Positions 15,180 to 58,225 of a stretch of DNA of 64,000 nucleotides are shown here, piece by piece. The stretch lies in NCBI GenBank assembly GCA_016193335.1, contig JACPSK010000001.1:279424-343423 (forward strand). Reading direction: 5' to 3'. Both the position numbers and the translations under genes were made by a program. The notes beneath the pieces were generated by a model. It ran no database searches. It was not told the origin of the DNA and was given only the letters and a program-made list of their open reading frames with translations. The DNA comes from Candidatus Magasanikiibacteriota bacterium. Lineage in GTDB: Bacteria > Patescibacteriota > Patescibacteriia > Magasanikbacterales > UBA922. Every line of letters starts with the position of its first letter. The first letter of the stretch is position 1.

Positions 15180-16199
15180 CTAATTGCCCGTTTGCAAAAG
15201 ACCCGCGCCTTTGGGGTTATACCCTTTTATTACTTCGAGTCCGTCTCTAAAACCGTCTCCGTCCGTGTCCGCGTTGAGCGGATCTGTACCCCAAATTTCC
15301 ACTTCAGCGGAATCACTTAACGCGTCATTGTCTGTATCAAAACTCCGAATGCTGGTTCCATAATTCGGTTCTTCGCTGTCTTCCAGACCGTCTCCGTCTT
15401 GATCGTTTGAAATGTCCAATTCAGCCGGAGGGATTTGCACAAGCCCACCAAGCAAACCCGCGCTTACCATACCGCCAAGACTCTGCAATGTCTCATTCGC
15501 CGTGTTTGCCGAAGCTTGCAAGGCGGCTCCCTTTTCCGCATCCATTCTCAGCGCAGAAGCAAGAAATTCGTTTCTTTTCTGAATATGCAAATCTATGTCT
15601 GACAAAAATCTTTTAAAAAGCGTTTCATCCTGAAAAGCTCCTGTCCATCTATTGCTCGTGCTTTGGACTTTGCGGATAAAGGCGTTCGCGGATGCCATGG
15701 CTTTCGCGGCCCCTTCATAATCTTTATTTTGCCTTACCATGAGAGAGGCAAGTTCCATGCTCTCTTGAGCATATTTCAAGGCCTTCTGAGCCTTGTCAAC
15801 CGGATTGAAGGTAAAAAATAAGTTGGCTTTTTTTACCACATCCCCCAGATATTGGCCTGCCCGTGAGGGTACGTTTTGTGGAGATTCAACCTCTATAATC
15901 TGAAAAGTCCGAGAAGCGTCACCGCCAGTCGTCACCAGAACCAAGCTACCACCTCCCACGCTGTCTTCTGCCTGTGCATTGCCTGAGAGAAGAAGCCCGA
16001 CAAAAACAAGTACAGCCATACAGAATCTGAAAGTATTCTTAATGTTTCCCCGCGGGTCTCCGTTCGCAATTTTGCCGGAACAGAAAAAAAAGAAAGAGGG
16101 ATGGGACGAAAAAACGGCCCCAGAATGTGAATTAAGGGTTTGCTCTACATTTAACGAAAAAATATCAGATCTCTGAATCATAGACACAGTATAGCACAT
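15180..16199 (-). CDS. Secreted/anchored protein with helical N-domain and C-terminal TSP3-like DxDxDG repeats ending GYNPKGAG. True start probably at internal Met (~16019)
   Basis: 339 aa as called. Signal-like MAVLVFVGLLLSGNAQA begins at aa 61. C-terminal DISNDQDGDGLEDSEEPNYGTSIRSFDTDNDALSDSAEVEIWGTDPLNADTDGDGFRDGLEVIKGYNPKGAG. Confidence 0.5.
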   Translation of the reverse strand: MCYTVSMIQRSDIFSLNVEQTLNSHSGAVFSSHPSFFFFCSGKIANGDPRGNIKNTFRFCMAVLVFVGLLLSGNAQAEDSVGGGSLVLVTTGGDASRTFQIIEVESPQNVPSRAGQYLGDVVKKANLFFTFNPVDKAQKALKYAQESMELASLMVRQNKDYEGAAKAMASANAFIRKVQSTSNRWTGAFQDETLFKRFLSDIDLHIQKRNEFLASALRMDAEKGAALQASANTANETLQSLGGMVSAGLLGGLVQIPPAELDISNDQDGDGLEDSEEPNYGTSIRSFDTDNDALSDSAEVEIWGTDPLNADTDGDGFRDGLEVIKGYNPKGAGLLQTGN

Positions 16200-16200: not shown

Positions 16201-19200
16201 TTAAAGCGAACATTTTTCTTCGGGTGGCAGAGGCATATTTTCTTTTATCTGACAGATATCTGTTTCTATAGTCTCAACAGGCTCTATACCATAACTGTAC
16301 GTGCCATCAGCCGAGGGACTTACCAAAAAATTAAAGACATGCCAGTACGGAGCCAAAGAATTACTGCTGGAATCGGCCGCGTCTTTTATATTAAAAGAAT
16401 AATCAGGCTGATACAAAGAATAGAGCGGCACTTGTCCTTCGTGGTAAGAATACACATCAACTTGAAGATTGCTATTTGTGTATGAGCCGAGAACATCATC
16501 CACCGCTTCCACGAAAAACCCATAAGAATGCGGCTGAGCAGTAACGATTATTGACGGGTCTATGGTAAAGGATTGGATAAAAGTCTTAGCGGCTCCCGCG
16601 ATTTCATGAACAAACACGCCGTTTGTTCCTGTGCAGCCACTTCCATTCAATGGAGCCGGCATCCAATACTCCTCGCTAACCGACCCCTCATCTGTTTGCA
16701 CGGTCTTATCGGTTTTTACCATAAATTTGCATAATTTTTGCAAGGGGTTAACAGCAGATTTCGCGTCAGCATAACGAATGAGCGCTTTCGTGGGATCTCC
16801 GCCGGAAAATTTCGCCAAACGAGAACTGTACAAGCCGCCGGAAAATATGCCGCCTTTCTTGTTTTCTTCGTCAGTCCAGCGAAGCACTACGCGAACGACA
16901 CCCTCAGGCACTGCCGGCGAAACAACCAATTCATTGACTATTTTTTCTTTTTCTCCATTCACCGGATAATCGAAGAAATGTTTCTTTTTGGCTTTGTATT
17001 GAAGCATTGAACCGCTTATGCCGGTGGCGGTCTGTATTCCAAGCCTGTTAAACGATAAAGCATATTCTTCTTTGCATAAAAGGTTTGCTTCTATATTACT
17101 TTCAGAGGTTATGAAGAAAGGATTTGAAGGAGTTTTAACAGTAATTAATGAAACATCATCGGGTTCCAGACTGAAGAAAGCACCCAAACCACCCTCTGTC
17201 TTAAGCTGTTTCCTGCCAAGAGACAAATCATAATCCGCCAGTTTCGCCCAATTCAAACCGGAACCCAGACTCTGTGTGTCTCCCCCTGTCAAAGGATCCA
17301 CCATTGGGTTGAGCAGAGCTAAAAGAGGCTCCGGGCCAAAGGTCTTTACGCCGCAGGCCACGCATTTGTTCTCCGGCTCTCCCAGACAATCGGAGGAACA
17401 AACCCAAGACCCTTTGTTTGTATAGTCCGGCCCCGCGTCGCAGACCAGCTGTTTTGAGTTGGCTTGTGATTTCTCCGCGACACAAGAGTCATAAGCCGCC
17501 ACGCAATCTTGTTTGCATTGAACATCGGAAACCAAAACTTTTTCCATAAAGGCGTCCGCGTCCGGGTTGTCTTCCCACGGTATTAATTCAAAAGGCAAGG
17601 GCTGGGCCGAGGTCCCATATAGCTTATTGCAGAGTTCTTTTGCCGGATCAGTGTATTGATCCCATTTTGTATAAGAAGAAAAGGAAACATTTACCCCACT
17701 GTTGATCCCTCCGATGGGAAAACCATAATAAGTATCAGGCACACCCTCTGGCGCATGGCCATAGGCCACGCGTATCCGATTTTGTGGATTGGCCGTGTTT
17801 TTGCAAATGTAGCCATCCAGGGTTTCTTTGCCGTATTTCCAAGGGCTTTGAAAATGATCCTCGCAATCGTTCTCGCAAGTCTGCACCTGAGTTTCGGCAA
17901 GACAAATATCCTGGACCTCGGCCAAGGTTTGGGGAATCAAAATAGCAGTACTACTAAAGGGCTCGCATTGCTCCGGACCGCTAATGAGCCCGTCTCCGCA
18001 AAATTCTCCCGAATCAATCGTCAAGATATTTTTACAATCCAATGAACAGTAATTGCAGGACTTGCCATAGACCGGACTGCATTTTACGCCGTTTTTGTCT
18101 TTTCCAAGATCACAGGCTTCTCCAATGTCTTGTTCAATTTTCCCATTGCCGCACTCTGCTTTGGCGATTTCCACGGTGCAAGACGAGGAACAACCGTCAC
18201 CGTCTTTTTTGTTGCCATCGTCGCAAGCCTCTGTCCCTTCTTTTTTTCCATTCCCGCAGAGAAGCGTTACCTCTTCAACTTCACAATAAGTATTACAGCC
18301 ATCGCCGTTTGTTTTGTTGCCATCGTCGCAAGCCTCGTATTCATGTTGGATTGATCCGTCTCCGCAATAATTGCCCACGGCCTTGCAATTCGCGGCGCAG
18401 CTGAATTCAGAAGAAAAATGATAGCTTGGATCTTTTAAGCAAGTATCAACGCAGTCTGAATTCTGGGAACAAGAAAGCCCCAGCGCCTTGCCGTTTGAAT
18501 TGTAGCAGGCGCCGTTCGTGCAAACCAAATTGAAATTACATTCATTCACCGCGCCACAAAGCGTATTCGCGTATTTGCAATATCCCGGTTTCTGCGCGTA
18601 TTTTGCTTCAGCTATATCACAGACTTCTTTGCCCGCTTGCACCAAACCATCTCCGCAATAAGCGGGATGCAGACCCTGGCAGGCCCCGACTTTGCTTCCG
18701 TCCGATAGAGCGCTCTTGCTGTCCGCGCAATGTCCATAGGTTCCATTCAAAGCTCCGTCATCGCATTTTTCTCCTGATTCTACCACGCCATTGCCGCAGG
18801 TATATGAAGCCGTGCAAAGGCCATACTCCCATGTTTTGCAATCTTGGCTACATATACTTTTAGCGAAATTACCCGTGGGGCATTGACCCAAGCCGCCCTG
18901 AATCGCGCCCACACATTGATCAAACTCCCAAGTAACACTCTTGGCGCAAGTAAGCGTCTGCTGATTTATTGCAACATATTGATTGAAGCCATCTTGGTTT
19001 AAAATATTCGGATTCGCATTGTCTAAATCGACAATACCGAATGAAGTGGCATCGTAATACGAGGCTGTTCTGCATTCACTGTCAGAGGAACAACCAAAGG
19101 CAACAAGTTTCAAACCGCCAGGCTCCCAAGTGGAGACAAGCTGATCATAAATTATCTCTTGAGCATTAGAGGACTTCGAATTGATACAGACTCCCTCTTT

Positions 19201-22200
19201 ATTTGTAAGCAAAATTCCGGCTCCATCCAAGTCTACATATTTTGGACAGTCTACTGATGCATTTAAGCAGGCTATGCCCGGGCTGAGGACGCAAGACCCT
19301 TCTTTTTGAGCGATATTCCCTATCTTTGAATACAAAAGCTGCCCCGGCGGATCGCATTCTTCCGCAGGACCCACGATTCCATTCCCGCAAGTTTCGTCAA
19401 AAGGATTCACGGGCAGAGGTAAGGCGGACTGACACCATTGTTCATCAGTAAAAGACTGAGTATCTATGAGGCCGCTTACGATTTCATCGTCAAGATTGAA
19501 AAATTCCAGATTTCCATGCAACACATAGCCTTGAGTGTCCTTTTGATATTCATACTCATACACGCTCGAAAAAGCCGGACACATGTACAGTGACTTGCTT
19601 TCATTCCAACAAGTATTGGGGTCCTGCAAGACGCAAGAATCATTTTCACCGGGGCAATCTTGATCTGAAGCGCAACCCAGAAAAACGCCTTGCTCTTCGG
19701 AACTGCCGCCCAAACACAATCCGCAAGAAGACCAACGGTTGATAGGATCCACCGGCAAACCACCCACCGAGGCGGCCAAAGTAGCACTCCAGGAAGGCCA
19801 TTTTGAGACCGTGTAACCCGGGACGAAAGTGCCGGACTTAAGATCTCCTTTAAAAGTCGGCAGACCTTCATTGGTGCTGAAATGGGTATTTATGTTTTTG
19901 AGAGCTTGCTGAATGCCGGGCAAACGCGCCCAATCTCTGAAAAACTTTGTTTTTGCGTTGGAACAAACACCGCTCGTCGTCGGGAGACCTTGGGCATCAA
20001 CCAGAGGCGAACCGCCGGCATCTCTGCAGTCAAAATCCGTTTCACAGGTTTTATCGGTTATATCATTGGCGTCTTCGCCAAAACGAATATCAAAAGATCC
20101 GTCTGCCATGCAATATTTGTGATCGCTCAAATTTGTATTGAACTCAAGTGAAGATACGAGCTGTTCCAATACGTCTTTTGTAGAAGAATCAGCGTCCGGA
20201 TTGATACTCAATAAATATATGTTATTAAATATGTCGCTTCCCGCTCCGTCCTCCACGAAATTCAAGGCGTTGACATAATAATTGGTATTGTCGCTGAGAG
20301 CTTCATAATTCGCGACGTTTTTCTCTTGCATAGTCCCCAAATCTTCAAATTTTTCAGCGTACCAGGCGCCCAAGGATTTCGCTTTCCCTTCTTCATCCAT
20401 GTTTTTAAAAATTTGCAGTCCGACCACATCTTTATTTTCCGGTTTATCATTGAAAAAGAGAATTTTGCGCAAAACATCTTGAGCCAACAATTTTTTGCCT
20501 TCATCCACTTCAAAAGAAATATCAACGCAAGAATCCGTCACTTTCCAAGCGACAGAAGCGTTAACGCAACTTTCATTCTGAGCCTGGTCACAATCCGCGC
20601 TTGCGGAGCAAGATATATATGTTGAACCATAAAGCGGCGGATATTGTATATTCCCGTTCGCGTCCGTTTTTCTGCAAAATTTTTCCGTGGGCAATGACGT
20701 CAACTTGCAACCATTTGTTTTTAACTCGACGGCGCTCAATTCCAGCTTGCACTCAGGAGTATACATAGGATAGCCCGGACTCGTGTTGACAGCGGGAAGA
20801 TTATACAAAGGAACGCATTGGCTGTCTTCCAAGCAAGAAGTTCCGGGTGCCAGCAAACAATTCCCCGGAACTTTAATTTGGACGTCTTGTTCATTTTGGA
20901 TCTCAAATATATTGTTCAAAAACGGCAAGTCGTCCGAGGTGTCACCGGCGTTACCGGCGTCCGCGCAATAACTCATGCTAAAATTGTACTTCTCGTCTTT
21001 CCACGGCGACCATGAACCATCGGCTTCAAAAGCCGGCCAAGGGTTTTCACAAAAATTCGCGGTCAAATCCATGATTTCGGTAAATTTAAAGCCCTCTTGG
21101 CTGTCTTCGCCCTTGTCGGTTATGATTTCAGCCGCGACAATACCATTGATATGGCCCTCCACGTCTTTGGAGCTAATCGTATTGTCGGGTTTGTTGATAT
21201 CCGGAATATCAAAAATGATATTGTTCACCGGATCCCATTTCCAAACCCAATCATAGACATCTTTAATGGGCACGATAAACTGTCCGTTCGCGCTCTCCGC
21301 TTTTACATTGAAATCCTTTCCTTGGCCGGGTTTATTGAACAAATAGGAATCCGGATCCACTTGAATATCTTTTATCTTGCAAATTTCATTTCCTGTTTTG
21401 AAAACCCAAATATCATCTCGAACCAGCAAGAAAGAATCCGCACTTTTAATGCCCACCCCGTCAATATCTCGTATGCCGGTTAAGCCACCATTCAAGAGGA
21501 CGCCATAAATACTGTTTTCATCCAAAAGCTTTCCTATATATATGGAAACAAGAGAAGCTTTAAGCGGCGTCTCACCGGCTACTGTTATTGTTTTGGCTTC
21601 AAAAGAAACCGGGATTTCACCCGCGCACCAGGTTTGTATATCGGTTAAATCTTTGATTTCAAAATAAGAAAGCGCGAAAGCTATCTTATTGAACAGCATC
21701 ACGAAAAAGTCTTTTATTTGTTTCCACATTTGATAAAAAAATCCGCCGTCGCTCTTGAGAACCAAAGTATTTATACCCATGGCATCCTGAACTTTTTCAG
21801 TAATGTCGTATCCGCCCGAACTTGCACAGTCATAGCCGGCCTCGGGATGTGCTTTTACTATGACTATATTATTATTGAGCGAGTCAACTTCAATTTCTTT
21901 GTTAAAACGCGCTTCTATATATGTGTTTCTGCATACGGCATTGTCAGGATCTCCGATCCCTGCTTGACCGGGAGGGTACTCTTCATATCTCAAAGGCCGA
22001 AGAGCACAGCAAGAATTATAAGCCACACCATAGAGATTGCCCCCATTCCCCCCGTTCACTACGCAATCATTATATTGTTCACTGACATCCTGAACTTTAA
22101 ATTCGGTGTACCCGCATTGAAGCGTATAATCTCCTGAACCGGAAGCATCATTGGGGATGCCAGGATTGCCATCTAACTTCACAGTGATGTCCGTGTTTTG

Positions 22201-25200
22201 CTTTCCATCCGTGACTGTGCCTTTCCCTATGGCGGTCACTACCTGCACCGGGCTACTGCTCGTAAAGTTGAAATTCAAAGTTTCCGCCGCTTTCTCGCAT
22301 TGACCATACTCTCCAAGACCAACTTTTCCTCCTGTTGCAAGTCCGTCGCCGCAAATTGATGAAGAAAAATATTTGGGTGAAGAACCAAGGAGCTGACATT
22401 CATCAGAGCAGCCTTCTAAACCTTTTTGACAACGGAAACCATTTTGTTGCGCGCTTGAATATTCGGGTATATTGGTGGAACAAATGTTTCCTTGGAGAAG
22501 ACAACGGGATCCACAGGCCGCTTTCGCCGCGTTTGTCTCTATCATAACATTTTCAGCGTAGTTACCGGCCACGTACACTTTGTTATTAATGACTTCGCAT
22601 TCTTCTCCATCCTCTATAACCGCATTGCCACAGATACTGAGGGATTCTTGACAGGCTTCTGCTTCTTCTTTGCTTTTGTTTGTTTTTTGTTCGCACCAGT
22701 AAGTAGCCAGCTGGGTGCCTATGTGTAAGCAGGTATCAGTACAAAATATATTTGACTGAGATTTATCCGTAGCGTCTTCGTAACTCAAGGCCATGTCACA
22801 GGCCTCGCCAAGACCCACCTCTCCGTCCCCGCACCACGATTGCCCCACCAACTCTGAATTGAACTGGCTGTAAGGCAGAGAACCTGTCAGCGCAGCGCCT
22901 TCTGGCGTGCTGGAACTGAATAGACAGTGCGTATCGCAGACACCCTCAGCCCATTTCAAGGTTCCGTCAGCGTTCTTTTCATTCAAATCACAATCTTCAC
23001 CCGGATCTTTTACGCCATTCCCGCAGAGAGGAAATGTTAATAAGACCGCGTTCGATAAATCACTGCCTTTCGGCAAACATAAAGGAGAACAAAAATCAGA
23101 CCATCCGAAACCGGTATGAAAATTGCTCACTGAAGCGACACTATTCCCATCCAGTTCATCTTTGTCTTCCGGGGTATACCAATCATACCCATAGTCCCAT
23201 TTATTCAATTTTTGTCCGTATTTGCTACATTCGTTTGGAGAACTGTAAGGAACAACGCCGTATTTTGTCTTCTCTCCTATGTTATAGGCAGTAAATGGAT
23301 CCGGTTCTACTTTGAGATCATTGGCCGCGCAAGGCGTGGCATCATTTTTTGTCTTAAATATCCATTCAAAAGGCTGGAGAGCTTTCCCTTGTTTAAAACT
23401 TCCATCCCCATTGATGAAATCAATGGAACGAATGGCAGAACTGAGACTCACCTTGTAATAGGTATTTTTGTCCAGAGAATCCGGATCCACCACCAATTTT
23501 AATTTGTTACTGCTATCAATATCATAAGCAGTGTTTGATATCTGCGTGGGATTGACGCAATTCGCGTTGTCACATTTGAACAAAACGAAACCCGCCTCAT
23601 AGGTGGACGGATCCATGTGTCTGTTGAAATGCGCGGCAATACTCGCGTTGATGCAAGATTCTGAACAATTTGGTTCCCAATAGATAACTTTCGGATCCCC
23701 AAGTTGGATATTAAGCAGACTGTAAGGCGACAAAAGCGTAGTAAGAGCTCCGGCCCCTTCTGTGGCTTCTTTGATAACAATTTCAGCCTCTGCTTCGATA
23801 TGAACAGGGGTAATGGCTGTATCTTCTTTTGCTCTGGCGATCCCTCTCGTATCTGTGTATTGAGGCGGATTTGGCCAATTATGAGCCGTAGCTTTGACAA
23901 GATCAGAACTGTCCCACACCCAACCTTTGCCGTCCACCGGAAGGACCGAACATTCCTGATCTCCATACCCGTTGATGAAATAATGCAAAGGATTAGTCGG
24001 AACCGCGAATATATCTTCCATATCTTGAACCGGATACTTGGGGTCCTGAACAGTACCCAGTTTGTCGGTGCTGTATTGAATGGGATTAACACCGGCATTG
24101 CTCAATACGCATAATTTATCATTGGTTTTGAAAGCGAAACAATAGGCAGTGCCTTCGCCGCAGGGTCTGGTTTCCTTGAGTGAACCGCTCTGGATCACCG
24201 ATTCGCCGAGAAGCTGAACGGTTTCCTGTGATTTGATATCTTTGGAAAGTTCAACATTGTACCAAGTATTGGGCGATAAATACGTCTCAGGGCTGTCATT
24301 TTCTTTTATAATCAAGATCTCATTCTCCAATTTCAAATCAAGGTTTGTTAGCTGTTCTTTTTTTGCGGCGCAATCCATGGCTCCGTCTTCAGCAGTATCG
24401 CAGACATAGACCTTCACATTATTGGAAGTGAGGGTGCCCGTATCCATGGACATACTGAAACGAACCGCGATACTCGCGTTTTTGCAGGAAGCTTCTCCCA
24501 ATTTCAGATTCTGTTCCCAAGGAGTTGGAGATGGAAATTCCTGCTGAATGTCAAGTTTATTCCAATTCGCCACATTACAATCCTCAATCACATAAGGACG
24601 GTTGGGTATGAGGCCCGTGGTAAAACGCCATACATATCCCGCGTCACGGGTTTCTCCGGGGCACACATAACCATTACCTATCCATTGACCAGCCCCCGGT
24701 CCTTCGGTACAGCAGGTATATCCGGTACCCGGAGCTGTGGCTCCCGTTTCTCTGCAATCTGAAACAGTGTAGAGCACTCCGTTGCTTACTTGCTCTGAAT
24801 CTGATTTTACTTTTATAAGTCCGCTCTGCATGGAAAGACCGGTACCCACATCTACAGGAAGCAATGTCCTAACCAAGGTATCAACAGACTGCAAAATGAC
24901 ATTTTCGCCGCCGAATTTGTCTTGCTCAGAATTCAGCCAGGTGTTGAGCGTATCGGCTTGAGCCCCGTTCTGCCAATAATACACCGTTGGATCGGTGGAA
25001 AAACCATAACCTCTGATATACAAACCCTCGCTCTCTTTGGGCAAAGGAGCCGGGCCTTTATTCGGGTCGAGCAAACAGATGCTGGGTAAAGGCAGACCTT
25101 CATATACTCCAAAAGTATCCAGGCCATTTGAATGCAAAGGCCCGTCGCCTCTTTGAACAATAAGATAATAATTCCCCGCGATCATAGAATCCGGAACCTG

Positions 25201-28200
25201 CACTATAACCTGTGTGTCAGACCAGGTGTCTTTGCAATACGCAGGAAGAGTGGCGTTGGCTTGTGCACAGGTTCCGTCATCCGGACTGCATTCATGACCC
25301 TCTTCGCTTGTAAGATATACGATGCCCGTACTTTCTCCAAAATTCTTTCCAAAAATCGTTATGTAGCTCCCCGGAGTGCTTGACACCGGATCTATGCTTT
25401 CAATGATTGGAGCAAGATCTTTCAAATCTCCGGCCAAAACTTGAAAAGGAACCGCGTTGCTTGTTTTCCCTCCCACTTGCACGGTAACCGGGACCTTGCC
25501 CACGGCAGTATTAAAAGGAACGAGGGACTGTAAGAAATTATCAGTCCATTTATCTTGGTCTACTTGGGCTATGACGCCGCCAAAATCCAGGTTACTCGTC
25601 GCACCCTTTATATTGCCAAAGGATTTGCCATAGGCCTGAATGTCGGTATTCGGCAAAGCGGAAGAAAATTTGTATGAATCTGCCGTAACTACGGCGCAGA
25701 GACCGGGCCGAACGGTTTCATTTTTTATGAAATACCCCGGCTTGCCGCCTGTAATCTGGTCATATTCTTGTTTTGTCAAGTAGCCTTTCGCGGCCGCGTC
25801 CGGGTCTGGGACAGGGTTAGGCCCAAATGCATCGTCGCTTAAATCAAACAAACTCGGGTCGTCTCCCCTGCTCACGCGTATGGCGCTTATCTGGCCCAGG
25901 GCTCCATAGGATCCAAAAACTCCGGTCTGATTGAATAAAGGATTGCTTTCCTTGCTTATTTGAATCGGCGCTTTGCCGTTGACAATATTTACCGGATTTT
26001 GATCGAAAAAACGCAGATACAAGCTAGGCTCAAGAGAAAGGGCCGCGTCTTTGTAATGATCCAAACCTGCCAGAGGATCGTACAAAGCCGCTACCTGGCT
26101 ATCTGACAATGGGGATTCGTACATCAAAAATTCATCTATACTGCCCTTAAAATACAGAGGGGTGAATATAGAACGTTTGCCCAAGTTAATCCCATTTACA
26201 TTTGATTGGGTCAGAGAGCCGGCGCTGAGAGCTGTGGTCTTGAGGACTTTCCCATCAAGATACAAAGCTATTTGTCCGAGAACACTGTCAAAACTTGCCA
26301 CTACATGGTGAAAAACACTGGGAGTAGCAAAGGGAGATGAGATACGTCTGTATTTTGACACGGTCGGATCGAACATTTCGAAATTTATATGCTTCGACAA
26401 ATCAGGGAGCGTATTGAGATACAAACTCCAGCCTCCTCCCGCTTGGCTGAGCCCGCCTCCGGCTACGACTTCAAGACCAGTCTTGCTCCCCTCTCCTCTT
26501 ATCCAAGCGCTTACTGAAAAAGAAGCGGGCGCCTGCTTATATATAGGACTCGGGTTTATACTCAAAGAATCATCCACGCCATCAAAAGCAATGGCGTTAC
26601 CTTTTGGGGCGGGGTTGGGAACTTCCACCACTACAAAACTATCCTGCCAGGTGCTCTTGATCACTTCACTGCACTCCGCCAATTTTGCTTCAATCCATTC
26701 GCTATCTTCATATTCTCCGCTGTCATTTAAATCGGTGGCAAATTCAACTTTCCCGATTTTGGAACCGAAATAATTACCCAATATACTTATCCAATTCCCG
26801 GAAGCCCCGTCCTGCGGAACAATATCCGTGATTTGAGGATATTGCACGCAGGTGTTGTTCACACACTTTAGTCCGGCAGAGCAAGGAGTTGATTCATCAC
26901 AGTAGGCTCCTTCTTCCGCCCCACAAGGTCCGCCGGCGTCAACGTCAGTCTCCCCTTTATCTTTGTCAAATTCTCCGTTGGCGCAATATCCGGGATACAC
27001 GAAAAAATAGGTCTGTTTTTCTGAACTGTTGTGGTCTATATCAAACACCGCGGCTGTAACAATATACTTTGTTTTCGCCGGAATGCCTGAGCCCAAAAAT
27101 AAAGGATAGCTGAAGGTAAAAGGGTTTGCCGATTCATTTTTGTAAGGACCGTCGTAAATGTCGAACACATCTGCCCCATTCTCCGAAGCAATATACAGAT
27201 GGACGTATCCAAGACCAGAATCATCTTCAACGGTAAATTCTATCGGATATGTATTGTTGCTATAGAGCTTGATGCCAGGCTCAACGCTCGGGTTCCCGTC
27301 TGGCAATACAAACTGTATGCCCGTTTTATAAACAGGCGCGGTTTTATCATTAATCTTCTGGTTAACCCCGAAATCGACTTCTTTGAATGTCTCCACGCCG
27401 CAGACAGTACCCTCTTCCAATTTCTCGCCATTAGTCGATTCTATTTCTTTGGGAACTTCAACAAGATATTTGCTATCTGAAAGCGGCAGGCAAGTTTGTC
27501 CTTCTGTTTTGTTTTCATCCGCGCAGTTCTGCTCTTCTCCGGCGTACTTATATCGAGCCTGAATTACTTTTTTACTGTCATCAACAAAGCTGATATCAAA
27601 TAAAGTTGTTATGTCTTCTTTGGTTAATTCATTGTTCCCTCTGTATATTTTCAGAGCGTCTCCCGGAGCAGTGCCCAAGGCCTTACTAAAGACCGCGCGG
27701 ATCACGATATTATTCATGTCTGTGACATCTTGGCTCGGCGTAATGCTTTTCACCACAAAGTGCTGTTCAAAACAAGAACCATAGCCACCCCCGCCGCCAT
27801 TACACTCGGCAACCGTTTGGCAGCCCCCGCCCCCGCCTCCTCCACCTGCGCCAGTGGCCTCCGCGAGCTTGTCCAAGACAAATTGGGTGATGGCGAGAGA
27901 AGACAAAATAATAGCAAGGCCTATAGTGCCATTTATCAAAATTTTCCGCGCTTGCAAAATCTTGTCTTCACTGCCTCCGGCGGTCATGTACACATATCCG
28001 CCGTACAATATAATACCAAGGGCTATGACCCCCAAAAGCCCAAGAAAAATTCGGATTATTTTTGCCACGGTAACGCGAATATCCTGGACTTCCAAATTCA
28101 CGGTTTCGTTTATCTTGGCCACGCCAAAGGTATCGCCTTGCGCCATGGCAAAATCGCTCCACGCAAAAGAAAATAGACCATAAAATAGAAACACGAAAAA

Positions 28201-28272
28201 ACATGGTAGGCCTATTTTGTACAATATTGTGCGAAGAGCTTTGTTCATAGGTAAAACGGAAAGTTTATTCAC
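16201..28272 (-). CDS. Giant (4023 aa) cell-surface adhesin-like protein. N-terminal signal plus two-helix membrane hairpin (TrbC/VirB2-pilin-like), then LamG/ConA-like, IPT-like, Ig-like and many Myxococcus-type Cys-rich (CGDG...ECDDGN..GDGC) repeats
   Basis: Single uninterrupted 12,072-nt ORF whose start overlaps the upstream gene stop by 8 nt. Motifs read from the translation: IIRIFLGLLGVIALGIILYGGYVYMTAGGSEDK...IGLAIILSSLAI, Gly8 linker, LamG block (SFSVSAWIRG...LYLDGKVL), and tandem CGNGKKEGTEACDDGNKKDGDGCSSSC-type repeats (~18150-18420). Confidence 0.8.
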   Translation of the reverse strand: MNKLSVLPMNKALRTILYKIGLPCFFVFLFYGLFSFAWSDFAMAQGDTFGVAKINETVNLEVQDIRVTVAKIIRIFLGLLGVIALGIILYGGYVYMTAGGSEDKILQARKILINGTIGLAIILSSLAITQFVLDKLAEATGAGGGGGGGGCQTVAECNGGGGGYGSCFEQHFVVKSITPSQDVTDMNNIVIRAVFSKALGTAPGDALKIYRGNNELTKEDITTLFDISFVDDSKKVIQARYKYAGEEQNCADENKTEGQTCLPLSDSKYLVEVPKEIESTNGEKLEEGTVCGVETFKEVDFGVNQKINDKTAPVYKTGIQFVLPDGNPSVEPGIKLYSNNTYPIEFTVEDDSGLGYVHLYIASENGADVFDIYDGPYKNESANPFTFSYPLFLGSGIPAKTKYIVTAAVFDIDHNSSEKQTYFFVYPGYCANGEFDKDKGETDVDAGGPCGAEEGAYCDESTPCSAGLKCVNNTCVQYPQITDIVPQDGASGNWISILGNYFGSKIGKVEFATDLNDSGEYEDSEWIEAKLAECSEVIKSTWQDSFVVVEVPNPAPKGNAIAFDGVDDSLSINPSPIYKQAPASFSVSAWIRGEGSKTGLEVVAGGGLSQAGGGWSLYLNTLPDLSKHINFEMFDPTVSKYRRISSPFATPSVFHHVVASFDSVLGQIALYLDGKVLKTTALSAGSLTQSNVNGINLGKRSIFTPLYFKGSIDEFLMYESPLSDSQVAALYDPLAGLDHYKDAALSLEPSLYLRFFDQNPVNIVNGKAPIQISKESNPLFNQTGVFGSYGALGQISAIRVSRGDDPSLFDLSDDAFGPNPVPDPDAAAKGYLTKQEYDQITGGKPGYFIKNETVRPGLCAVVTADSYKFSSALPNTDIQAYGKSFGNIKGATSNLDFGGVIAQVDQDKWTDNFLQSLVPFNTAVGKVPVTVQVGGKTSNAVPFQVLAGDLKDLAPIIESIDPVSSTPGSYITIFGKNFGESTGIVYLTSEEGHECSPDDGTCAQANATLPAYCKDTWSDTQVIVQVPDSMIAGNYYLIVQRGDGPLHSNGLDTFGVYEGLPLPSICLLDPNKGPAPLPKESEGLYIRGYGFSTDPTVYYWQNGAQADTLNTWLNSEQDKFGGENVILQSVDTLVRTLLPVDVGTGLSMQSGLIKVKSDSEQVSNGVLYTVSDCRETGATAPGTGYTCCTEGPGAGQWIGNGYVCPGETRDAGYVWRFTTGLIPNRPYVIEDCNVANWNKLDIQQEFPSPTPWEQNLKLGEASCKNASIAVRFSMSMDTGTLTSNNVKVYVCDTAEDGAMDCAAKKEQLTNLDLKLENEILIIKENDSPETYLSPNTWYNVELSKDIKSQETVQLLGESVIQSGSLKETRPCGEGTAYCFAFKTNDKLCVLSNAGVNPIQYSTDKLGTVQDPKYPVQDMEDIFAVPTNPLHYFINGYGDQECSVLPVDGKGWVWDSSDLVKATAHNWPNPPQYTDTRGIARAKEDTAITPVHIEAEAEIVIKEATEGAGALTTLLSPYSLLNIQLGDPKVIYWEPNCSESCINASIAAHFNRHMDPSTYEAGFVLFKCDNANCVNPTQISNTAYDIDSSNKLKLVVDPDSLDKNTYYKVSLSSAIRSIDFINGDGSFKQGKALQPFEWIFKTKNDATPCAANDLKVEPDPFTAYNIGEKTKYGVVPYSSPNECSKYGQKLNKWDYGYDWYTPEDKDELDGNSVASVSNFHTGFGWSDFCSPLCLPKGSDLSNAVLLTFPLCGNGVKDPGEDCDLNEKNADGTLKWAEGVCDTHCLFSSSTPEGAALTGSLPYSQFNSELVGQSWCGDGEVGLGEACDMALSYEDATDKSQSNIFCTDTCLHIGTQLATYWCEQKTNKSKEEAEACQESLSICGNAVIEDGEECEVINNKVYVAGNYAENVMIETNAAKAACGSRCLLQGNICSTNIPEYSSAQQNGFRCQKGLEGCSDECQLLGSSPKYFSSSICGDGLATGGKVGLGEYGQCEKAAETLNFNFTSSSPVQVVTAIGKGTVTDGKQNTDITVKLDGNPGIPNDASGSGDYTLQCGYTEFKVQDVSEQYNDCVVNGGNGGNLYGVAYNSCCALRPLRYEEYPPGQAGIGDPDNAVCRNTYIEARFNKEIEVDSLNNNIVIVKAHPEAGYDCASSGGYDITEKVQDAMGINTLVLKSDGGFFYQMWKQIKDFFVMLFNKIAFALSYFEIKDLTDIQTWCAGEIPVSFEAKTITVAGETPLKASLVSIYIGKLLDENSIYGVLLNGGLTGIRDIDGVGIKSADSFLLVRDDIWVFKTGNEICKIKDIQVDPDSYLFNKPGQGKDFNVKAESANGQFIVPIKDVYDWVWKWDPVNNIIFDIPDINKPDNTISSKDVEGHINGIVAAEIITDKGEDSQEGFKFTEIMDLTANFCENPWPAFEADGSWSPWKDEKYNFSMSYCADAGNAGDTSDDLPFLNNIFEIQNEQDVQIKVPGNCLLAPGTSCLEDSQCVPLYNLPAVNTSPGYPMYTPECKLELSAVELKTNGCKLTSLPTEKFCRKTDANGNIQYPPLYGSTYISCSASADCDQAQNESCVNASVAWKVTDSCVDISFEVDEGKKLLAQDVLRKILFFNDKPENKDVVGLQIFKNMDEEGKAKSLGAWYAEKFEDLGTMQEKNVANYEALSDNTNYYVNALNFVEDGAGSDIFNNIYLLSINPDADSSTKDVLEQLVSSLEFNTNLSDHKYCMADGSFDIRFGEDANDITDKTCETDFDCRDAGGSPLVDAQGLPTTSGVCSNAKTKFFRDWARLPGIQQALKNINTHFSTNEGLPTFKGDLKSGTFVPGYTVSKWPSWSATLAASVGGLPVDPINRWSSCGLCLGGSSEEQGVFLGCASDQDCPGENDSCVLQDPNTCWNESKSLYMCPAFSSVYEYEYQKDTQGYVLHGNLEFFNLDDEIVSGLIDTQSFTDEQWCQSALPLPVNPFDETCGNGIVGPAEECDPPGQLLYSKIGNIAQKEGSCVLSPGIACLNASVDCPKYVDLDGAGILLTNKEGVCINSKSSNAQEIIYDQLVSTWEPGGLKLVAFGCSSDSECRTASYYDATSFGIVDLDNANPNILNQDGFNQYVAINQQTLTCAKSVTWEFDQCVGAIQGGLGQCPTGNFAKSICSQDCKTWEYGLCTASYTCGNGVVESGEKCDDGALNGTYGHCADSKSALSDGSKVGACQGLHPAYCGDGLVQAGKEVCDIAEAKYAQKPGYCKYANTLCGAVNECNFNLVCTNGACYNSNGKALGLSCSQNSDCVDTCLKDPSYHFSSEFSCAANCKAVGNYCGDGSIQHEYEACDDGNKTNGDGCNTYCEVEEVTLLCGNGKKEGTEACDDGNKKDGDGCSSSCTVEIAKAECGNGKIEQDIGEACDLGKDKNGVKCSPVYGKSCNYCSLDCKNILTIDSGEFCGDGLISGPEQCEPFSSTAILIPQTLAEVQDICLAETQVQTCENDCEDHFQSPWKYGKETLDGYICKNTANPQNRIRVAYGHAPEGVPDTYYGFPIGGINSGVNVSFSSYTKWDQYTDPAKELCNKLYGTSAQPLPFELIPWEDNPDADAFMEKVLVSDVQCKQDCVAAYDSCVAEKSQANSKQLVCDAGPDYTNKGSWVCSSDCLGEPENKCVACGVKTFGPEPLLALLNPMVDPLTGGDTQSLGSGLNWAKLADYDLSLGRKQLKTEGGLGAFFSLEPDDVSLITVKTPSNPFFITSESNIEANLLCKEEYALSFNRLGIQTATGISGSMLQYKAKKKHFFDYPVNGEKEKIVNELVVSPAVPEGVVRVVLRWTDEENKKGGIFSGGLYSSRLAKFSGGDPTKALIRYADAKSAVNPLQKLCKFMVKTDKTVQTDEGSVSEEYWMPAPLNGSGCTGTNGVFVHEIAGAAKTFIQSFTIDPSIIVTAQPHSYGFFVEAVDDVLGSYTNSNLQVDVYSYHEGQVPLYSLYQPDYSFNIKDAADSSSNSLAPYWHVFNFLVSPSADGTYSYGIEPVETIETDICQIKENMPLPPEEKCSL

Positions 28273-30433
28273 CTGAAACAGGGCTTACTTCTTCTGAAGA
28301 CAAAAGGTCCAGACAAACAGGGGTACTCGGCTGAGCCGTAACCGAATCATCCGTGGTAACGCAAGCAGTGTCAACCGTTCCGGTCTCAAGCACTTCGTCT
28401 TCATTTAATTGTTGAAGCTTTACATCAAAACAATCGGCCCCGGTTCCAGTGATCGGGTTCCCTTCCGTGTCTTCTTTATATGCGCATACTATGGATTCTC
28501 CTTTGGCGCCAGACTTGGGCCCCCTGCCCGGATACAAACAATTTCCATTTGAAGAAAGCACGTTTGAATCCGCATAAGGAAAATAATAAAAATCCTGATC
28601 ATTGGGACCAAAAACCCTGTGCAAAAGACTGGCTACGGTAGAGTTCGGATAATCAGGCACCGCAAGTTTCAAAGGATTATCCAGATCTTCAGATTCAGGT
28701 TTTGACCAAAATTCGAGAACTGTTCCCGGAATAGGGGTTACATTATCAGGAAACTCGCGCATTCTAATATTGTAAAGAGTTCCGAAAAGCATTCTTCTAT
28801 TGAAATACAAAGTAACCGGTTCGTCTTTGACCACGTTTTCTTTGTCAACCCCGGGAAAAACACGTTGGAGGTAGGGCGAACTCCGGTCTATTTTATTGAG
28901 GACGACAAAAGACCACCAATAGTTGTCTTCTTGAGCTCCTTCAGCCCGTCCTTTTGCCACTGCGTTTGGGGTTGGCCCGTCCAAAGCATTGCCAGACATA
29001 TCCATGACGCCGCTGAATGGTTTGCTTTCAAATGATTTGTTGTTTGTCGGATTAATTAATTCAGCCGAATGAACCACAATGCTATATTGATTTTTCGAGG
29101 TATCAGTACAAGCAGTTTCTCCGCAATCAAGGGGCAAACAATACAGCGGATTGCCGCAACTGTTTTGTCCGCAGACTTCGTCAGAATAAAATTCCACTGT
29201 TTTGTATCCATTGCTTATCTTCCATTCACCGGTTGGTACAGCCTCGCCCGCTCCATCCAATGTATTGAAAACCAAATTGTTGTGTGGGACCGCGGCTGTT
29301 GTCAAACCCTGTACCATAGTGGGATCCACGGCTTCATTGAAATGAATTTGGACATACTCATTTCGAGCCGTTTCAGTATTGGGATCTGGATTCACGGATA
29401 CCACAAAAGGAGGAGATTGGTCCAAAGTGCCGTCAGTTTGAAAATCCCACGTATAGTATTCGGCGCCAAGAAGGTCGCCGAATACCCCAATTTGTTTGCC
29501 GTTAACCGGTGTTTTTTTGAGAATACTGTTGTTCAATTTCACCGTATGCCATACTTCTTCGGCTTCTTTGCCCAGATGATCAAAGGGCTTTATAACTAAA
29601 GTATATACATTTCGAGCGTCAGCGTCCTCGTACAAAGCTTGGGCTGAGGCGTTTTTGAGCTGTTTGATTTCGGCCTGGGTATCGAAAATTCCCACGGCTT
29701 CTGTTTTGAGATGATCACAATCTTTCTCATAACTGAAATTGGGACTTTCTGTAAGGCAATCTCCATAATACGGCTCAGAAAAAACGTCATCACAAAGAAC
29801 CGGAACAGCTTCAGATCCCCAGCAGGTTTTATTAAAATTGTCCATCACTGACGCAGGGTCAATGGGTTCAAAAAAAGTAATCGCTATCTTTGTATTCCGC
29901 TTTACTCCTGTTTGGTCCCTAAACGGATAATGATCTTTCACCACCTTGCCCAAAGCCCCGCTTCCGGTGAAAGTATCAAATACCGGAGCTCCTTCGCTCT
30001 GTTTCGCGGAAGGATTTATGGCTTCGGTAAGCGCGTTGATGACCCATTGCGCTATAGCAAGAGAAGACAAAATAATGGCAAGCCCGATAACCGCGTTCCT
30101 TAAAATGGTTTTGCCGGCCGTGACTTTTTCTTCATTTCCCGCCGCGGTCATAATAGTATAACCGGCGTAGATGATAAGAATCACGGCAATAAGGCCAAGT
30201 AAACCGAGAACCGCCCGTATAATGCGCGCGGCTATCACTCGTATGTCAGCATTCGCCAATTGCACTTCTTGGCCAAATTGGCCAAGACCAAAGGTGTCTG
30301 ATTGGGCGGACACAGTGCCTCCTCCATACGCCAAACTCAGGCCCAAAAAAAGAAAAACCGCGACTCCAACTATAACGGCATGGAGCGCAGTTTTGTTACT
30401 GTACTTTCTGAATGTGAATATCCTTGGCAGCAT
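28265..30433 (-). CDS. 722-aa surface protein paralogous over its N-terminal ~135 aa (signal plus membrane hairpin module) to the giant protein, followed by Ig-like/beta-rich extracellular domains
   Basis: Conserved N-terminal region: DTFGLGQFGQEVQLANADIRVIAARIIRAVLGLLGLIAVILIIYAGYTIMTAAGNEEK...IGLAIILSSLAIAQWV versus the giant protein's DTFGVAKINETVNLEVQDIRVTVAKIIRIFLGLLGVIALGIILYGGYVYMTAGGSEDK...IGLAIILSSLAITQFV. Confidence 0.7.
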   Translation of the reverse strand: MLPRIFTFRKYSNKTALHAVIVGVAVFLFLGLSLAYGGGTVSAQSDTFGLGQFGQEVQLANADIRVIAARIIRAVLGLLGLIAVILIIYAGYTIMTAAGNEEKVTAGKTILRNAVIGLAIILSSLAIAQWVINALTEAINPSAKQSEGAPVFDTFTGSGALGKVVKDHYPFRDQTGVKRNTKIAITFFEPIDPASVMDNFNKTCWGSEAVPVLCDDVFSEPYYGDCLTESPNFSYEKDCDHLKTEAVGIFDTQAEIKQLKNASAQALYEDADARNVYTLVIKPFDHLGKEAEEVWHTVKLNNSILKKTPVNGKQIGVFGDLLGAEYYTWDFQTDGTLDQSPPFVVSVNPDPNTETARNEYVQIHFNEAVDPTMVQGLTTAAVPHNNLVFNTLDGAGEAVPTGEWKISNGYKTVEFYSDEVCGQNSCGNPLYCLPLDCGETACTDTSKNQYSIVVHSAELINPTNNKSFESKPFSGVMDMSGNALDGPTPNAVAKGRAEGAQEDNYWWSFVVLNKIDRSSPYLQRVFPGVDKENVVKDEPVTLYFNRRMLFGTLYNIRMREFPDNVTPIPGTVLEFWSKPESEDLDNPLKLAVPDYPNSTVASLLHRVFGPNDQDFYYFPYADSNVLSSNGNCLYPGRGPKSGAKGESIVCAYKEDTEGNPITGTGADCFDVKLQQLNEDEVLETGTVDTACVTTDDSVTAQPSTPVCLDLLSSEEVSPVSGE

Positions 30434-36021: not shown

Positions 36022-36158
36022 ACAAAATCTTAGGACCGAAAAGACTTGTCTATATTGTAACTCAGATACCTTTATAAAACAAAACGACCCCGCCTCCATC
36101 TATAAACACAATCTTTTGTGAACATAGACAGTGTGGGGTCGTGTGAAACAAAATCTAT

Positions 36159-36584: not shown

Positions 36585-36608
36585 GATGACCTCCCTTGTT
36601 GTCTGACT

Positions 36609-58160: not shown

Positions 58161-58225
58161 CGTCTATAGACGTAGACATTTTGCTTTCCTCACTCGGTCC
58201 TTTACAGCAAAGACAAAGAGTTGGA

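What the first reader, a model, noticed from the sequence alone, without database searches (positions are those of the whole stretch)
16201..30433. 4023-aa giant surface protein with Myxococcus-type Cys-rich repeats, LamG and IPT-like domains, co-transcribed with a 722-aa N-terminal paralog
A single 12-kb ORF is a large fraction of a small genome. Its N-terminus carries the membrane hairpin, then a Gly8 linker. Downstream are a LamG/ConA-like lectin domain (SFSVSAWIRG...LYLDGKVL), IPT/TIG-like and Ig-like units. There are many copies of the Myxococcales-type cysteine-rich repeat (CGNGxxExGEECDDGNxxxGDGCSxxC), densest around 18150-18420, where a 24-nt string (tttgttgccatcgtcgcaagcctc) is repeated in tandem. 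The upstream 722-aa gene overlaps its start by 8 nt and shares the anchor region. This fits a cell-cell attachment apparatus, for example host attachment by an episymbiont.
Basis: partly seen in the sequence, partly recalled or inferred. Interest (0 to 1): 0.7.

Follow-up and report, generated by a model that had tools for sequence, protein, structure and literature searches.

The report
Pilin-anchored giant surface protein cassette
A real 430-kDa, disulfide-rich cell-surface protein of a tiny Magasanikbacteria (CPR) bacterium is held in the membrane by a conjugative-pilin-like hairpin and belongs to a five-gene surface cassette conserved across the lineage; it most likely forms an adhesive fibre, though this is untested.

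Summary
The 4023-codon ORF (16201-28272, minus strand) and the 722-aa upstream gene are real. The giant's product is 100% identical to GenBank MBI2989824.1 (Candidatus Magasanikbacteria) and was assembled independently.

- **Not a mis-assembly.** Intact collinear orthologs of 3646-5017 aa occur in 11 genomes. A library search gives 235 cluster representatives at E<=1e-30.
- **Conserved gene order.** hisS, yqeY, 722-aa gene, giant, three single-pass membrane proteins (thrombospondin type-3 repeats in two, a similar stretch in the third), ybeY, dgkA, ftsA, ftsZ.
- **The anchor.** The "membrane hairpin" is a VirB2-type pilin module (PF18895). It is the best-conserved part (58% vs 30% identity) and is 36-66% identical to stand-alone 111-249-aa pilins.
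- **The ectodomain.** The scaffold of Big_5, IPT/TIG and Cys-rich repeats is conserved, with 154 Cys. LamG is a variable insert; other orthologs carry other lectin or propeller modules.
- **A split relative.** A distant relative splits the protein at about aa 2460-2600. The domain after that point is sequence-orphan: half resembles the Mog1/PsbP fold, half matches nothing.

Corrections: the 24-mer occurs twice, 105 nt apart, not in tandem. The start is probably ATG 28248, so there is no 8-nt overlap. Paralogy covers only about 150 aa.

Adhesion is plausible but untested.

The parts
28265..30433 (-). Upstream 722-aa gene: signal peptide, VirB2-type pilin hairpin (aa 66-131), then an ectodomain containing a Big_5 Ig-like domain (aa 338-400).
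   Evidence: ORF. Pfam T4SS_pilin 34.4 bits and Big_5 47.5 bits. Orthologs of 695-776 aa (one stop-to-stop frame of 1143 aa) lie directly upstream of the giant in every one of the 26 loci whose contig reaches that far.
16201..28272 (-). Giant gene: 4023 codons from the GTG start. The probable true start is ATG 28248 (M9, 4015 aa). The mature protein is about 430 kDa with pI 4.4.
   Evidence: Residues 43-4023 are 100% identical to GenBank MBI2989824.1.
28141..28248 (-). Signal peptide (aa 9-44), ending in the conserved V/A-x-A|Q site.
   Evidence: In the alignment of 13 anchors, A44 is invariant and Q45 is conserved in at least 90%. Hydropathy.
27853..28140 (-). VirB2/TrbC-type pilin hairpin (aa 45-140): two transmembrane helices joined by a short K/R-rich loop.
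   Evidence: Pfam PF18895 27.3 bits against a cut-off of 26.6, with orthologs down to 1.5e-12. Mean identity to orthologs is 0.58 against 0.30 for the rest of the protein. It is 36-66% identical to stand-alone pilins.
27772..27852 (-). Gly8 / Cys-Gly linker (aa 141-167).
   Evidence: Read directly from the translation.
27376..27768 (-). Big_5-like Ig domain 1 (aa 169-299).
   Evidence: HMM built from the family alignment; it cross-matches the Big_5-like domain at aa 1261-1355.
26614..26838 (-). IPT/TIG domain (aa 479-553).
   Evidence: Family HMM of the TIG domain, independent E-value 5e-11.
26089..26580 (-). LamG / ConA-like lectin insert (aa 565-728). It sits in a variable, gap-rich segment (aa 560-800).
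   Evidence: Pfam Laminin_G_3 3.5e-16. Present in 4 of 11 and 7 of 11 family members in two scans. About 70% gaps in orthologs across this segment.
25132..25410 (-). IPT/TIG domain (aa 955-1047).
   Evidence: Pfam TIG 6.9e-9 and family HMM.
24118..24501 (-). Big_5-like Ig domain 2 (aa 1258-1385).
   Evidence: Cross-match to the Big_5 HMM, 7.6e-17.
23050..23673 (-). Big_5 domain 3 (aa 1534-1645) plus the Ig-like domain that follows it (aa 1646-1741).
   Evidence: Pfam Big_5 1.7e-13 and family HMMs.
22288..23025 (-). First block of degenerate Cys-rich repeats, with CGxG...E.C heads at aa 1750, 1814, 1881 and 1974.
   Evidence: Regular-expression search. The Cys positions are invariant across orthologs.
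20908..21960 (-). Big_5-like domain 4 (aa 2105-2295), an Ig-like domain (aa 2296-2405) and the conserved FCENPWP...YCADAG...DDLP motif module (aa 2406-2455).
   Evidence: The same module is present in the 1903-aa relative P0004.
20476..20907 (-). Variable linker (aa 2456-2599). This is the point where the protein is split into two genes in a distant relative.
   Evidence: Gap-rich bins. In L027 a 1903-aa gene matches giant aa 25-2454 and a 1029-aa gene matches aa 2604-2896.
19423..20475 (-). Two-lobed conserved domain (aa 2600-2950) with no sequence relatives in Pfam or PDB.
17953..19389 (-). Second Cys-rich block (aa 2962-3440). It includes the three canonical Myxococcus-type repeats (aa 3303-3415, nt 18028-18366).
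   Evidence: TIGR02232 91.5 bits. HMM search and regular expression. The pair of identical 24-mers lies here.
16204..17355 (-). Conserved C-terminal (membrane-distal) domain, aa 3640-4023. Fold unknown.
   Evidence: Recovered in 114 of 155 family proteins by the region HMM. No hit in Pfam or PDB sequences.
15180..16199 (-). Downstream gene 1 (339 aa): hydrophobic N-terminal segment, weak DUF5667 match, C-terminal bacterial TSP3 (Ca-binding type) repeats. It starts 1 nt after the giant's stop codon.
   Evidence: Pfam TSP3_bac 57.8 bits. Sequence. Conserved position in the family.
14184..15158 (-). Downstream gene 2 (324 aa): a long N-terminal region before a single transmembrane helix (aa about 143-170), then TSP3 repeats.
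12868..14130 (-). Downstream gene 3 (420 aa): single transmembrane helix (aa about 76-96), a TSP3-like stretch and a C-terminal globular domain.
   Evidence: No Pfam or PDB hit. Conserved in all loci that extend far enough, and also in L027.

Best explanation
**What it is.** The giant gene and its upstream partner encode two surface proteins of a Candidatus Magasanikbacteria (Patescibacteria/CPR) cell. Each is built on a VirB2-type pilin module.

**Shown here**
- An N-terminal signal peptide is followed by a two-helix pilin hairpin and then about 3880 residues of disulfide-rich ectodomain.
- The ectodomain has 154 Cys, of which 102 are conserved.
- It is a collinear, conserved scaffold of Big_5 and other Ig-like domains, IPT/TIG domains, Cys-rich repeats and orphan domains.
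- A few hot spots carry lineage-variable ConA-like lectin or beta-propeller inserts. In this genome the insert is LamG.
- The two genes plus three single-pass membrane proteins form a five-gene cassette in the same order throughout the lineage; two carry TSP3 repeats and the third a similar stretch.
- In a distant relative the giant is two genes: a pilin-anchored 'stalk' and a separately secreted 'head'.

**Inferred**
- The protein is exported by Sec and cleaved after A-x-A.
- The hairpin sits in the membrane with its loop in the cytoplasm, as in VirB2, so the whole C-terminal part is outside.
- A DsbA-type oxidoreductase forms the disulfides.
- The molecule makes a long, acidic fibre whose variable lectin modules and distal head bind glycans or proteins on another cell or surface.
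- The 722-aa protein and the TSP3 proteins form its base.

**How likely**
- Anchored extracellular fibre: about 0.9.
- Main role is adhesion to a partner or host: about 0.5.
For: - **ORFs and domains:**
- **Topology features:**
- **Anchor is a true pilin module.** Pfam match is above the cut-off. The 120 closest of 3583 relatives (36-66% identical) are 111-249-aa proteins, several annotated as pilins and several on contigs of hundreds of kb, in arrays of 12 or more genes.
- **The gene is real.** Identical product on 4 contigs including Logan run SRR12113425. Eleven intact orthologs of 3646-5017 aa. 235 cluster representatives at E<=1e-30, mostly 3300-5300 aa.
- **Cassette synteny** in 26 loci.
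- **Conserved cysteines:**
- **Variable accessory domains.** LamG 4/11 and 7/11, BNR/sortilin propellers, LVIVD, pentaxin, Toxin_R_bind_N, CARDB. They sit in gap-rich hot spots.
- **Fission in L027:**
- **DsbA-like gene** at 45353-46003.
- **Published precedent** for giant CPR surface proteins and essential adhesins or pilins: PMC8080830, PMC10633639.
Against: - No binding, localisation or expression data exist.
- The protein evolves no faster than small housekeeping proteins: 32-39% identity against YbeY 39-51% and DAGK 35-47%. It is strictly collinear. This is unlike many host-range adhesins and fits a structural envelope role equally well.
- It is not known whether this organism is an episymbiont.
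- Most of the ectodomain, including the distal C-terminal domain, has no assigned fold or function. The one confident model (aa 2590-2960) gave no functional clue.
- The Pfam score of the anchor is only just above the cut-off in this protein (27.3 against 26.6).
Confidence: 0.6

Rival explanations
1. Mega-pilin. The giant and the 722-aa protein are minor or tip subunits that the CPR type IV secretion-like machine extracts from the membrane. They co-assemble with the stand-alone VirB2-like pilins, so the pilus displays a 430-kDa lectin-bearing adhesin. This would parallel large minor pilins at the tips of type IV pili.
For: - The hairpin is the most conserved part of the protein (0.58 against 0.30 identity) and has invariant polar residues: D64, Y90, G92, M96, T97, G100, N114. 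A passive anchor would be expected to drift.
- It is 36-66% identical to stand-alone pilins that sit in arrays of at least 12 paralogs. That is closer than the roughly 25% mean identity reported within CPR pilin arrays (10.1101/2025.01.22.634366).
- Two pilin-fusion genes lie in tandem.
- Pilin series are essential in S. epibionticum (PMC10633639).
Against: - No VirB4, VirB6 or VirD4 gene was found among the major ORFs of the 64-kb window. Only homologs of the window's genes were looked for in the flanks of the 26 related loci. The pilin array examined also has no VirB4 within 10 kb.
- The same hairpin is embedded inside a VanY peptidase and, weakly, inside a nuclease in this window. That suggests a general membrane-anchor use.
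- It is not clear how a subunit with a 3880-residue C-terminal extension could fit into a pilus other than at its tip.
Confidence: 0.17
2. Structural envelope scaffold. The cassette builds a constitutive S-layer-like or spacer layer that shapes or protects the cell envelope, perhaps coordinated with division. It would not be a host-specific adhesin.
For: - It is present in the same place, directly upstream of ybeY-dgkA-ftsA-ftsZ, in every locus that extends far enough.
- It has collinear architecture and a housekeeping-like rate of change.
- Big_5 domains are annotated in Pfam as bacterial Ig-like domains; from my own knowledge they occur in S-layer proteins.
- The partner proteins carry Ca-binding TSP3 repeats.
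Against: - From my own knowledge, S-layer proteins are usually much smaller and poor in cysteine.
- The variable lectin and propeller cassettes point to binding of an external ligand.
- No SLH or other cell-wall-binding module was found.
- Synteny with ftsAZ may be a historical accident.
Confidence: 0.2
3. Artefact. The 12-kb ORF is a chimeric assembly of repeat-containing fragments, or a decaying pseudogene.
For: It comes from a metagenome-assembled genome. GenBank annotates a shorter start (M43).
Against: - There are almost no DNA repeats: only two adjacent 105-nt units.
- The identical 3981-aa product is called on 4 contigs, including an independent Logan assembly.
- Eleven intact collinear orthologs exist, and 102 Cys positions are conserved.
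Confidence: 0.02

Closest known systems
VirB2/TrbC-type pilins of Patescibacteria (Pfam PF18895 T4SS_pilin); pilin arrays described in bioRxiv 10.1101/2025.01.22.634366 and in PMC10633639
   Same: - Signal peptide plus a two-helix hairpin.
- 36-66% sequence identity of the hairpin to stand-alone pilins of the same lineage.
- Two pilin-type genes in tandem.
   Different: - Stand-alone pilins are 111-249 aa. Here the module carries about 580 or about 3880 extra extracellular residues.
- The genes are not next to T4SS genes.
Giant membrane proteins of the CPR predator Vampirococcus lugosii (1392-4163 aa; PMC8080830)
   Same: - Very large predicted membrane or surface proteins in a tiny CPR genome.
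- Interaction or adhesion domains.
- Proposed to form a fibrous surface and to attach to the host.
   Different: - A different CPR lineage (Absconditabacteria).
- Different reported domain sets (WD40, PKD, DUF11, integrin).
- That paper, in the passages I read, mentions no pilin anchor and no conserved cassette.
- Homology to the present family was not tested.
Giant Gram-negative RTX/Bap-type adhesins (LapA, SiiE, MpIBP; from my own knowledge)
   Same: Rod-like chains of Ig-like domains, with ligand-binding lectin-type modules and calcium dependence.
   Different: - No RTX or type I secretion signal.
- No near-identical tandem repeats.
- Anchored at the N-terminus by a membrane hairpin.
- Stabilised by disulfides.
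- Collinear non-repetitive domains that are conserved across species.
Myxococcus-type cysteine-rich acidic repeat proteins (TIGR02232 / DUF4215)
   Same: Three canonical repeats score 91.5 bits against a cut-off of 20.8.
   Different: The repeats are a minor part of the protein, about 110 of 4023 residues plus degenerate copies.
Mog1/PsbP/DcrB/LpqN-like alpha-beta sandwich proteins
   Different: - Sequence identity is 7-12%.
- Foldseek is not significant.
- The C-lobe has no match.
- The match implies no function.

Membership tests
T4SS_pilin (PF18895) / VirB2-TrbC pilin | Match to the family HMM above the curated cut-off | tested here: met
   Giant 27.3 bits and 722-aa protein 34.4 bits against a cut-off of 26.6. 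All 11 members in each of two scans match, with best E-values 1.5e-12 and 2.8e-11.
T4SS_pilin (PF18895) / VirB2-TrbC pilin | Signal peptide followed by two hydrophobic helices joined by a short charged loop | tested here: met
   Hydropathy peaks at aa 12-30, 65-83 and 111-129. The loop between the helices is TAGGSEDKILQARK. The A-Q site is conserved.
T4SS_pilin (PF18895) / VirB2-TrbC pilin | Small protein (about 100-250 aa) consisting of the pilin module alone | tested here: not met
   The two proteins are 4023 and 722 aa. The 120 closest relatives of the hairpin are 111-249 aa.
T4SS_pilin (PF18895) / VirB2-TrbC pilin | Encoded beside T4SS machinery (VirB4, VirB6, VirD4) | tested here: not met
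   No such Pfam domains in the major ORFs of the 64-kb window. In the 26 related loci only homologs of the window's genes were looked for.
T4SS_pilin (PF18895) / VirB2-TrbC pilin | Polymerises into a pilus | not testable with these tools
   Needs purification or cryo-electron microscopy.
Myxococcus cysteine-rich repeat (TIGR02232) | Repeat HMM above the cut-off, in several copies | tested here: met
   91.5 bits against 20.8, in 3 stretches. The family HMM finds copies at aa 3303-3336, 3339-3369 and 3374-3415.
LamG / ConA-like lectin (PF13385) | Domain HMM above the cut-off | tested here: met
   60.1 bits against 27.6, aa 565-728. The domain is accessory: 4/11 and 7/11 family members carry it.
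RTX / type I-secreted giant adhesins | C-terminal RTX repeats or secretion signal, near-identical tandem Ig repeats, adjacent type I secretion genes | tested here: not met
   No RTX or HlyD/TolC-type hits. Tandem Repeats Finder finds no arrays.
S-layer proteins | SLH or other cell-wall-anchoring module, and self-assembly into a lattice | tested here: not met
   Only Big_5 domains were found and no SLH domain. Lattice formation cannot be tested here.
Mog1/PsbP-like fold (aa about 2600-2725) | Structural superposition with significant scores | tested here: inconclusive
Pseudopilin / T2SS-G-like head (my own guess for aa about 2770-2850) | Pfam or structural match to type IV pilin or GspG | tested here: not met

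The most novel reading that the evidence does not exclude
The giant and its 722-aa neighbour are 'mega-pilins'. These would be VirB2-type subunits that the Patescibacteria T4SS-like machine assembles together with the dozen or so stand-alone pilins. The resulting conjugative-type pilus would be tipped or decorated by a 430-kDa, lectin-bearing, disulfide-rich head. This would be a new way of building a host-contact organelle in monoderm ultrasmall bacteria. It would also give a function to the enigmatic, essential CPR pilin arrays.
Probability: 0.15. Interest if true: 0.85.

Novelty: new variant of a known kind. Interest (0 to 1): 0.55.

Why it matters
How CPR bacteria other than Saccharibacteria contact other cells is largely unknown. 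The VirB2-like pilin arrays of the group are essential in the one species tested, but their function is unexplained.

This locus shows three things:
- The pilin module is also the foot of a lineage-wide, 430-kDa surface protein, of a smaller partner protein, and even of two enzymes.
- These genes sit in a conserved five-gene cassette.
- The family is large (hundreds of 50%-identity clusters) and has swappable lectin modules.

That gives a concrete, widely distributed target for cryo-electron tomography, metaproteomics and glycan-binding work. It also supplies several orphan domains for structural study.

If the protein turns out to be an ordinary anchored adhesin, the value is mainly descriptive.

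Tried and rejected
1. Searching the 5.8-billion-protein database with the full 4023-aa query timed out. Shorter queries returned few hits because of the word index.
2. Exact look-up of the 722-aa protein found nothing on record.
3. AlphaFold2 of aa 2100-2960 with a 6-sequence alignment gave pLDDT 41.9 and was not used.
5. Sequence searches of the PDB were essentially empty. The giant gave one weak TIG hit. The family profile of aa 2590-2960, the 722-aa protein and the 420-aa protein gave nothing.
6. The promoter and terminator scan was close to chance, so it says nothing about co-transcription.
7. The AFDB fold library was unavailable.
8. A reverse transcriptase lies beside the related cassette in L027. 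No template/variable repeat pair was found, so there is no evidence of a diversity-generating retroelement.
9. A polymorphic-toxin reading was considered and dropped. No toxin domain is present, and the C-terminal domain is conserved rather than variable.

Full report

The minus strand carries an uninterrupted ORF at 16201-28272 (4023 codons from a GTG). A 722-codon ORF lies directly upstream at 28265-30433.

- Laminin_G_3, aa 565-728, 3.5e-16
- TIG, aa 955-1049
- Big_5, aa 1540-1618
- The Myxococcus cysteine-rich repeat TIGR02232, 91.5 bits, three stretches
- DUF4215, below the cut-off

The 'membrane hairpin' is a match to PF18895 T4SS_pilin, the Patescibacteria version of VirB2/TrbC. The giant scores 27.3 bits and the 722-aa protein 34.4 bits, against a cut-off of 26.6. 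The two proteins share 44% identity over their first 150 or so residues and little else.

Four details need correction:
- The 24-nt string occurs exactly twice, 105 nt apart. That is two neighbouring 35-aa repeat units, not a tandem 24-mer. The gene is otherwise almost free of DNA repeats.
- The 8-nt overlap depends on the GTG start. An alignment of 13 anchors puts the start at M9 (ATG 28248), which leaves a 16-nt spacer.
- GenBank's start at M43 cuts off the signal peptide.
- There are three canonical Cys repeats (aa 3303-3415, nt 18028-18366) plus about eight degenerate heads.

**2. Source, and whether the gene is an assembly artefact**

The product is 100% identical over 3981 residues to MBI2989824.1, annotated 'IPT/TIG domain-containing protein', from a Candidatus Magasanikbacteria genome. 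The longest contig carrying it is 686,675 bp. The identical product is called on four contigs, including an independent Logan assembly of run SRR12113425.

A scan of one genome per species found 26 loci, nearly all Magasanikbacteria. Eleven of them have intact single ORFs of 3646-5017 aa. The rest are cut by contig ends, and three are split into two frames.

An exhaustive HMMER search with aa 2100-2960 found 1132 cluster representatives at E<=1e-3 and 235 at E<=1e-30. Most of the best 150 are 3300-5300 aa long. Mis-assembly and pseudogene readings are therefore rejected.

**3. The unit is a cassette**

Wherever the contig allows, the gene order is: hisS, yqeY, the roughly 720-aa pilin-anchored gene, the giant, three small genes, ybeY, dgkA, ftsA, ftsZ.

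In the window the three small genes are:
- 15180-16199 (339 aa): TSP3_bac 57.8 bits and a weak DUF5667 match
- 14184-15158 (324 aa): TSP3_bac
- 12868-14130 (420 aa): no Pfam hit

Each has one hydrophobic segment. The second and third have a long N-terminal region before it and a thrombospondin type-3-like, presumably calcium-binding, stretch after it. The gap between the giant's stop codon and the next start is 1 nt. Co-transcription is plausible but could not be tested, because the promoter and terminator scan was at chance level.

A distant relative (L027, from P0004) has the same cassette, but the giant is in two genes:
- A 1903-aa pilin-anchored protein that matches aa 25-2454.
- A 1029-aa protein with its own signal peptide that begins with the aa 2604-2896 domain.

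The Magasanikbacteria giant is therefore a fusion of an anchored 'stalk' and a secreted 'head'. The join lies in the variable segment at aa 2456-2599.

**4. Anatomy**

| Region (aa) | Feature |
|---|---|
| 9-44 | Signal peptide |
| 45-140 | Pilin hairpin |
| 141-167 | Gly/Cys linker |
| 169-299, 1258-1385, 1534-1645, 2105-2295 | Four Big_5-like domains |
| 1646-1741, 2296-2405 | Ig-like domains following Big_5 |
| 479-553, 955-1047 | At least two IPT/TIG domains |
| 1750-1995, 2962-3440 | Two Cys-rich repeat blocks |
| 2406-2455 | Conserved FCENPWP...YCADAG...DDLP motif |
| 2600-2950 | Two-lobed orphan domain |
| 3640-4023 | Conserved C-terminal domain |

- The ectodomain has 154 cysteines, an even number, and 102 are conserved in at least 90% of orthologs. 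A DsbA-like gene lies at 45353-46003.
- The mature protein is about 430 kDa with pI 4.4.
- Conservation is collinear, at 30-45% identity in most 100-residue bins. Gap-rich hot spots lie at aa 560-800 (the LamG insert), 2480-2600, 3000-3100 and 3440-3650.
- LamG is present in only 4 of the 11 family members first scanned. Among the longest relatives, 7 of 11 have LamG. Others carry BNR/sortilin propellers, LVIVD, pentaxin, Toxin_R_bind_N or CARDB. The accessory modules are thus mostly lectin-type jelly rolls and propellers placed on a fixed scaffold.

**5. The orphan domain**

With a 22-sequence alignment, AlphaFold2 gave a confident model of aa 2590-2960 (pLDDT 85.6, pTM 0.84).
- Nothing matched the C-lobe.
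- Foldseek found nothing at E<=1e-3.
- Profile searches of PDB sequences and Pfam were empty.
- My own guess of a pseudopilin-like head is rejected.
- An earlier model of aa 2100-2960 was too poor to use.

**6. The anchor**

The hairpin is the best-conserved part of the giant, at 0.58 identity against 0.30 for the rest. It has invariant polar residues.

A profile of 13 anchors retrieved 3583 proteins at E<=1e-6. The best 120 are all 111-249 aa, 36-66% identical, and several are annotated 'pilin' in Magasanikbacteria. Some lie on short contigs and may be fragments; others lie on contigs of hundreds of kb. One of them sits in an array of at least 12 small pilin genes.

The literature reports such arrays across CPR and their essentiality in Southlakia epibionticum (10.1101/2025.01.22.634366; PMC10633639).

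Two points argue against a direct T4SS role:
- No VirB4, VirB6 or VirD4 gene was found among the window's major ORFs; the flanks of the related loci were compared only with the window's own genes.
- The same hairpin is embedded inside a VanY peptidase (49550-51913) and, weakly, inside a nuclease (46010-48448) in this window. That suggests a general anchor.

**7. Mechanism**

Best supported: Sec export and signal-peptide cleavage. The VirB2-like hairpin then inserts with its loop in the cytoplasm, so the C-terminal 3880 residues are outside. Oxidative folding produces a long acidic fibre. The 722-aa protein and the three TSP3 proteins form the base. The variable lectin modules and the distal head do the binding.

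The topology, the assembly and the binding are all inferences.

The protein changes at about the rate of YbeY, DAGK and YqeY, and more slowly than a typical fast-evolving adhesin would. A constitutive structural role is therefore a serious rival, and the mega-pilin model remains open.

**8. Comparison with known systems, and novelty**

Giant surface proteins proposed for host attachment are already described in CPR (Vampirococcus, PMC8080830). The pilin family and the individual domains are also known, and this protein is already deposited in GenBank.

I did not find the following described in the searchable literature:
- Fusion of a VirB2-type pilin module to a 430-kDa ectodomain
- The conserved five-gene cassette
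- The stalk/head fission
- The size of the family

I rate it a new variant of a known kind, of moderate interest (0.55).

Noticed in passing
window 49550-51913 (+) and 46010-48448 (+): A 787-aa VanY-type peptidase has an internal T4SS_pilin hairpin (aa 434-497). An 812-aa Exo_endo_phos nuclease has a weak internal match to the same hairpin (aa 463-525). The pilin module seems to be reused as an anchor inside enzymes. radA and recG follow; the CPR T4SS preprint mentions these two genes (as recombination genes) in a passage on co-localised genes.
   Followed up: partly
window 58000-62000: GC content jumps to 0.59-0.60 against about 0.45 elsewhere. The stretch holds a 793-aa aldehyde dehydrogenase ORF (58292-60673, minus strand) and ends at a tRNA-Arg gene (61784-61856). 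It is possibly a horizontally acquired island.
   Followed up: no
window 41936-43867 (+): A 643-aa protein, extremely rich in K, E, Q and D and apparently disordered, with one C-terminal transmembrane segment. The region has an AT skew of 0.47 and many overlapping spurious ORFs.
   Followed up: partly
window 36159-36617 (-): A 152-aa protein that consists only of the DnaA C-terminal helix-turn-helix domain (Bac_DnaA_C, 6.4e-19), with no ATPase part.
   Followed up: no
window 45353-46003 (+): A DsbA-like thioredoxin-fold protein. It is a candidate oxidase for the 154 extracellular cysteines of the giant.
   Followed up: no
window 28141-28272: The GenBank record MBI2989824.1 starts at M43 and so lacks the signal peptide that all orthologs have. 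The likely start is ATG 28248.
   Followed up: yes
L027 13216-14427: A reverse transcriptase gene (RVT_1) lies directly after the related cassette in a distant relative. No template/variable repeat pair was found in the 17-kb locus, so there is no sign of a diversity-generating retroelement aimed at the cassette.
   Followed up: partly
L027 9676-10455: The separately encoded 'head' protein of the distant relative ends in at least five tandem 120-nt (40-aa) Cys-rich repeats. These are far more repetitive at the DNA level than anything in the window's gene.
   Followed up: no
L029 5424-15060: A Magasanikbacteria genome carries an array of at least 12 small T4SS_pilin genes (68-245 aa), with no VirB4 within 10 kb.
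   Followed up: partly
window 34903-36099 (-): A 398-aa protein with a CAP (cysteine-rich secretory protein) domain. It is another likely secreted protein near the cassette.
   Followed up: no
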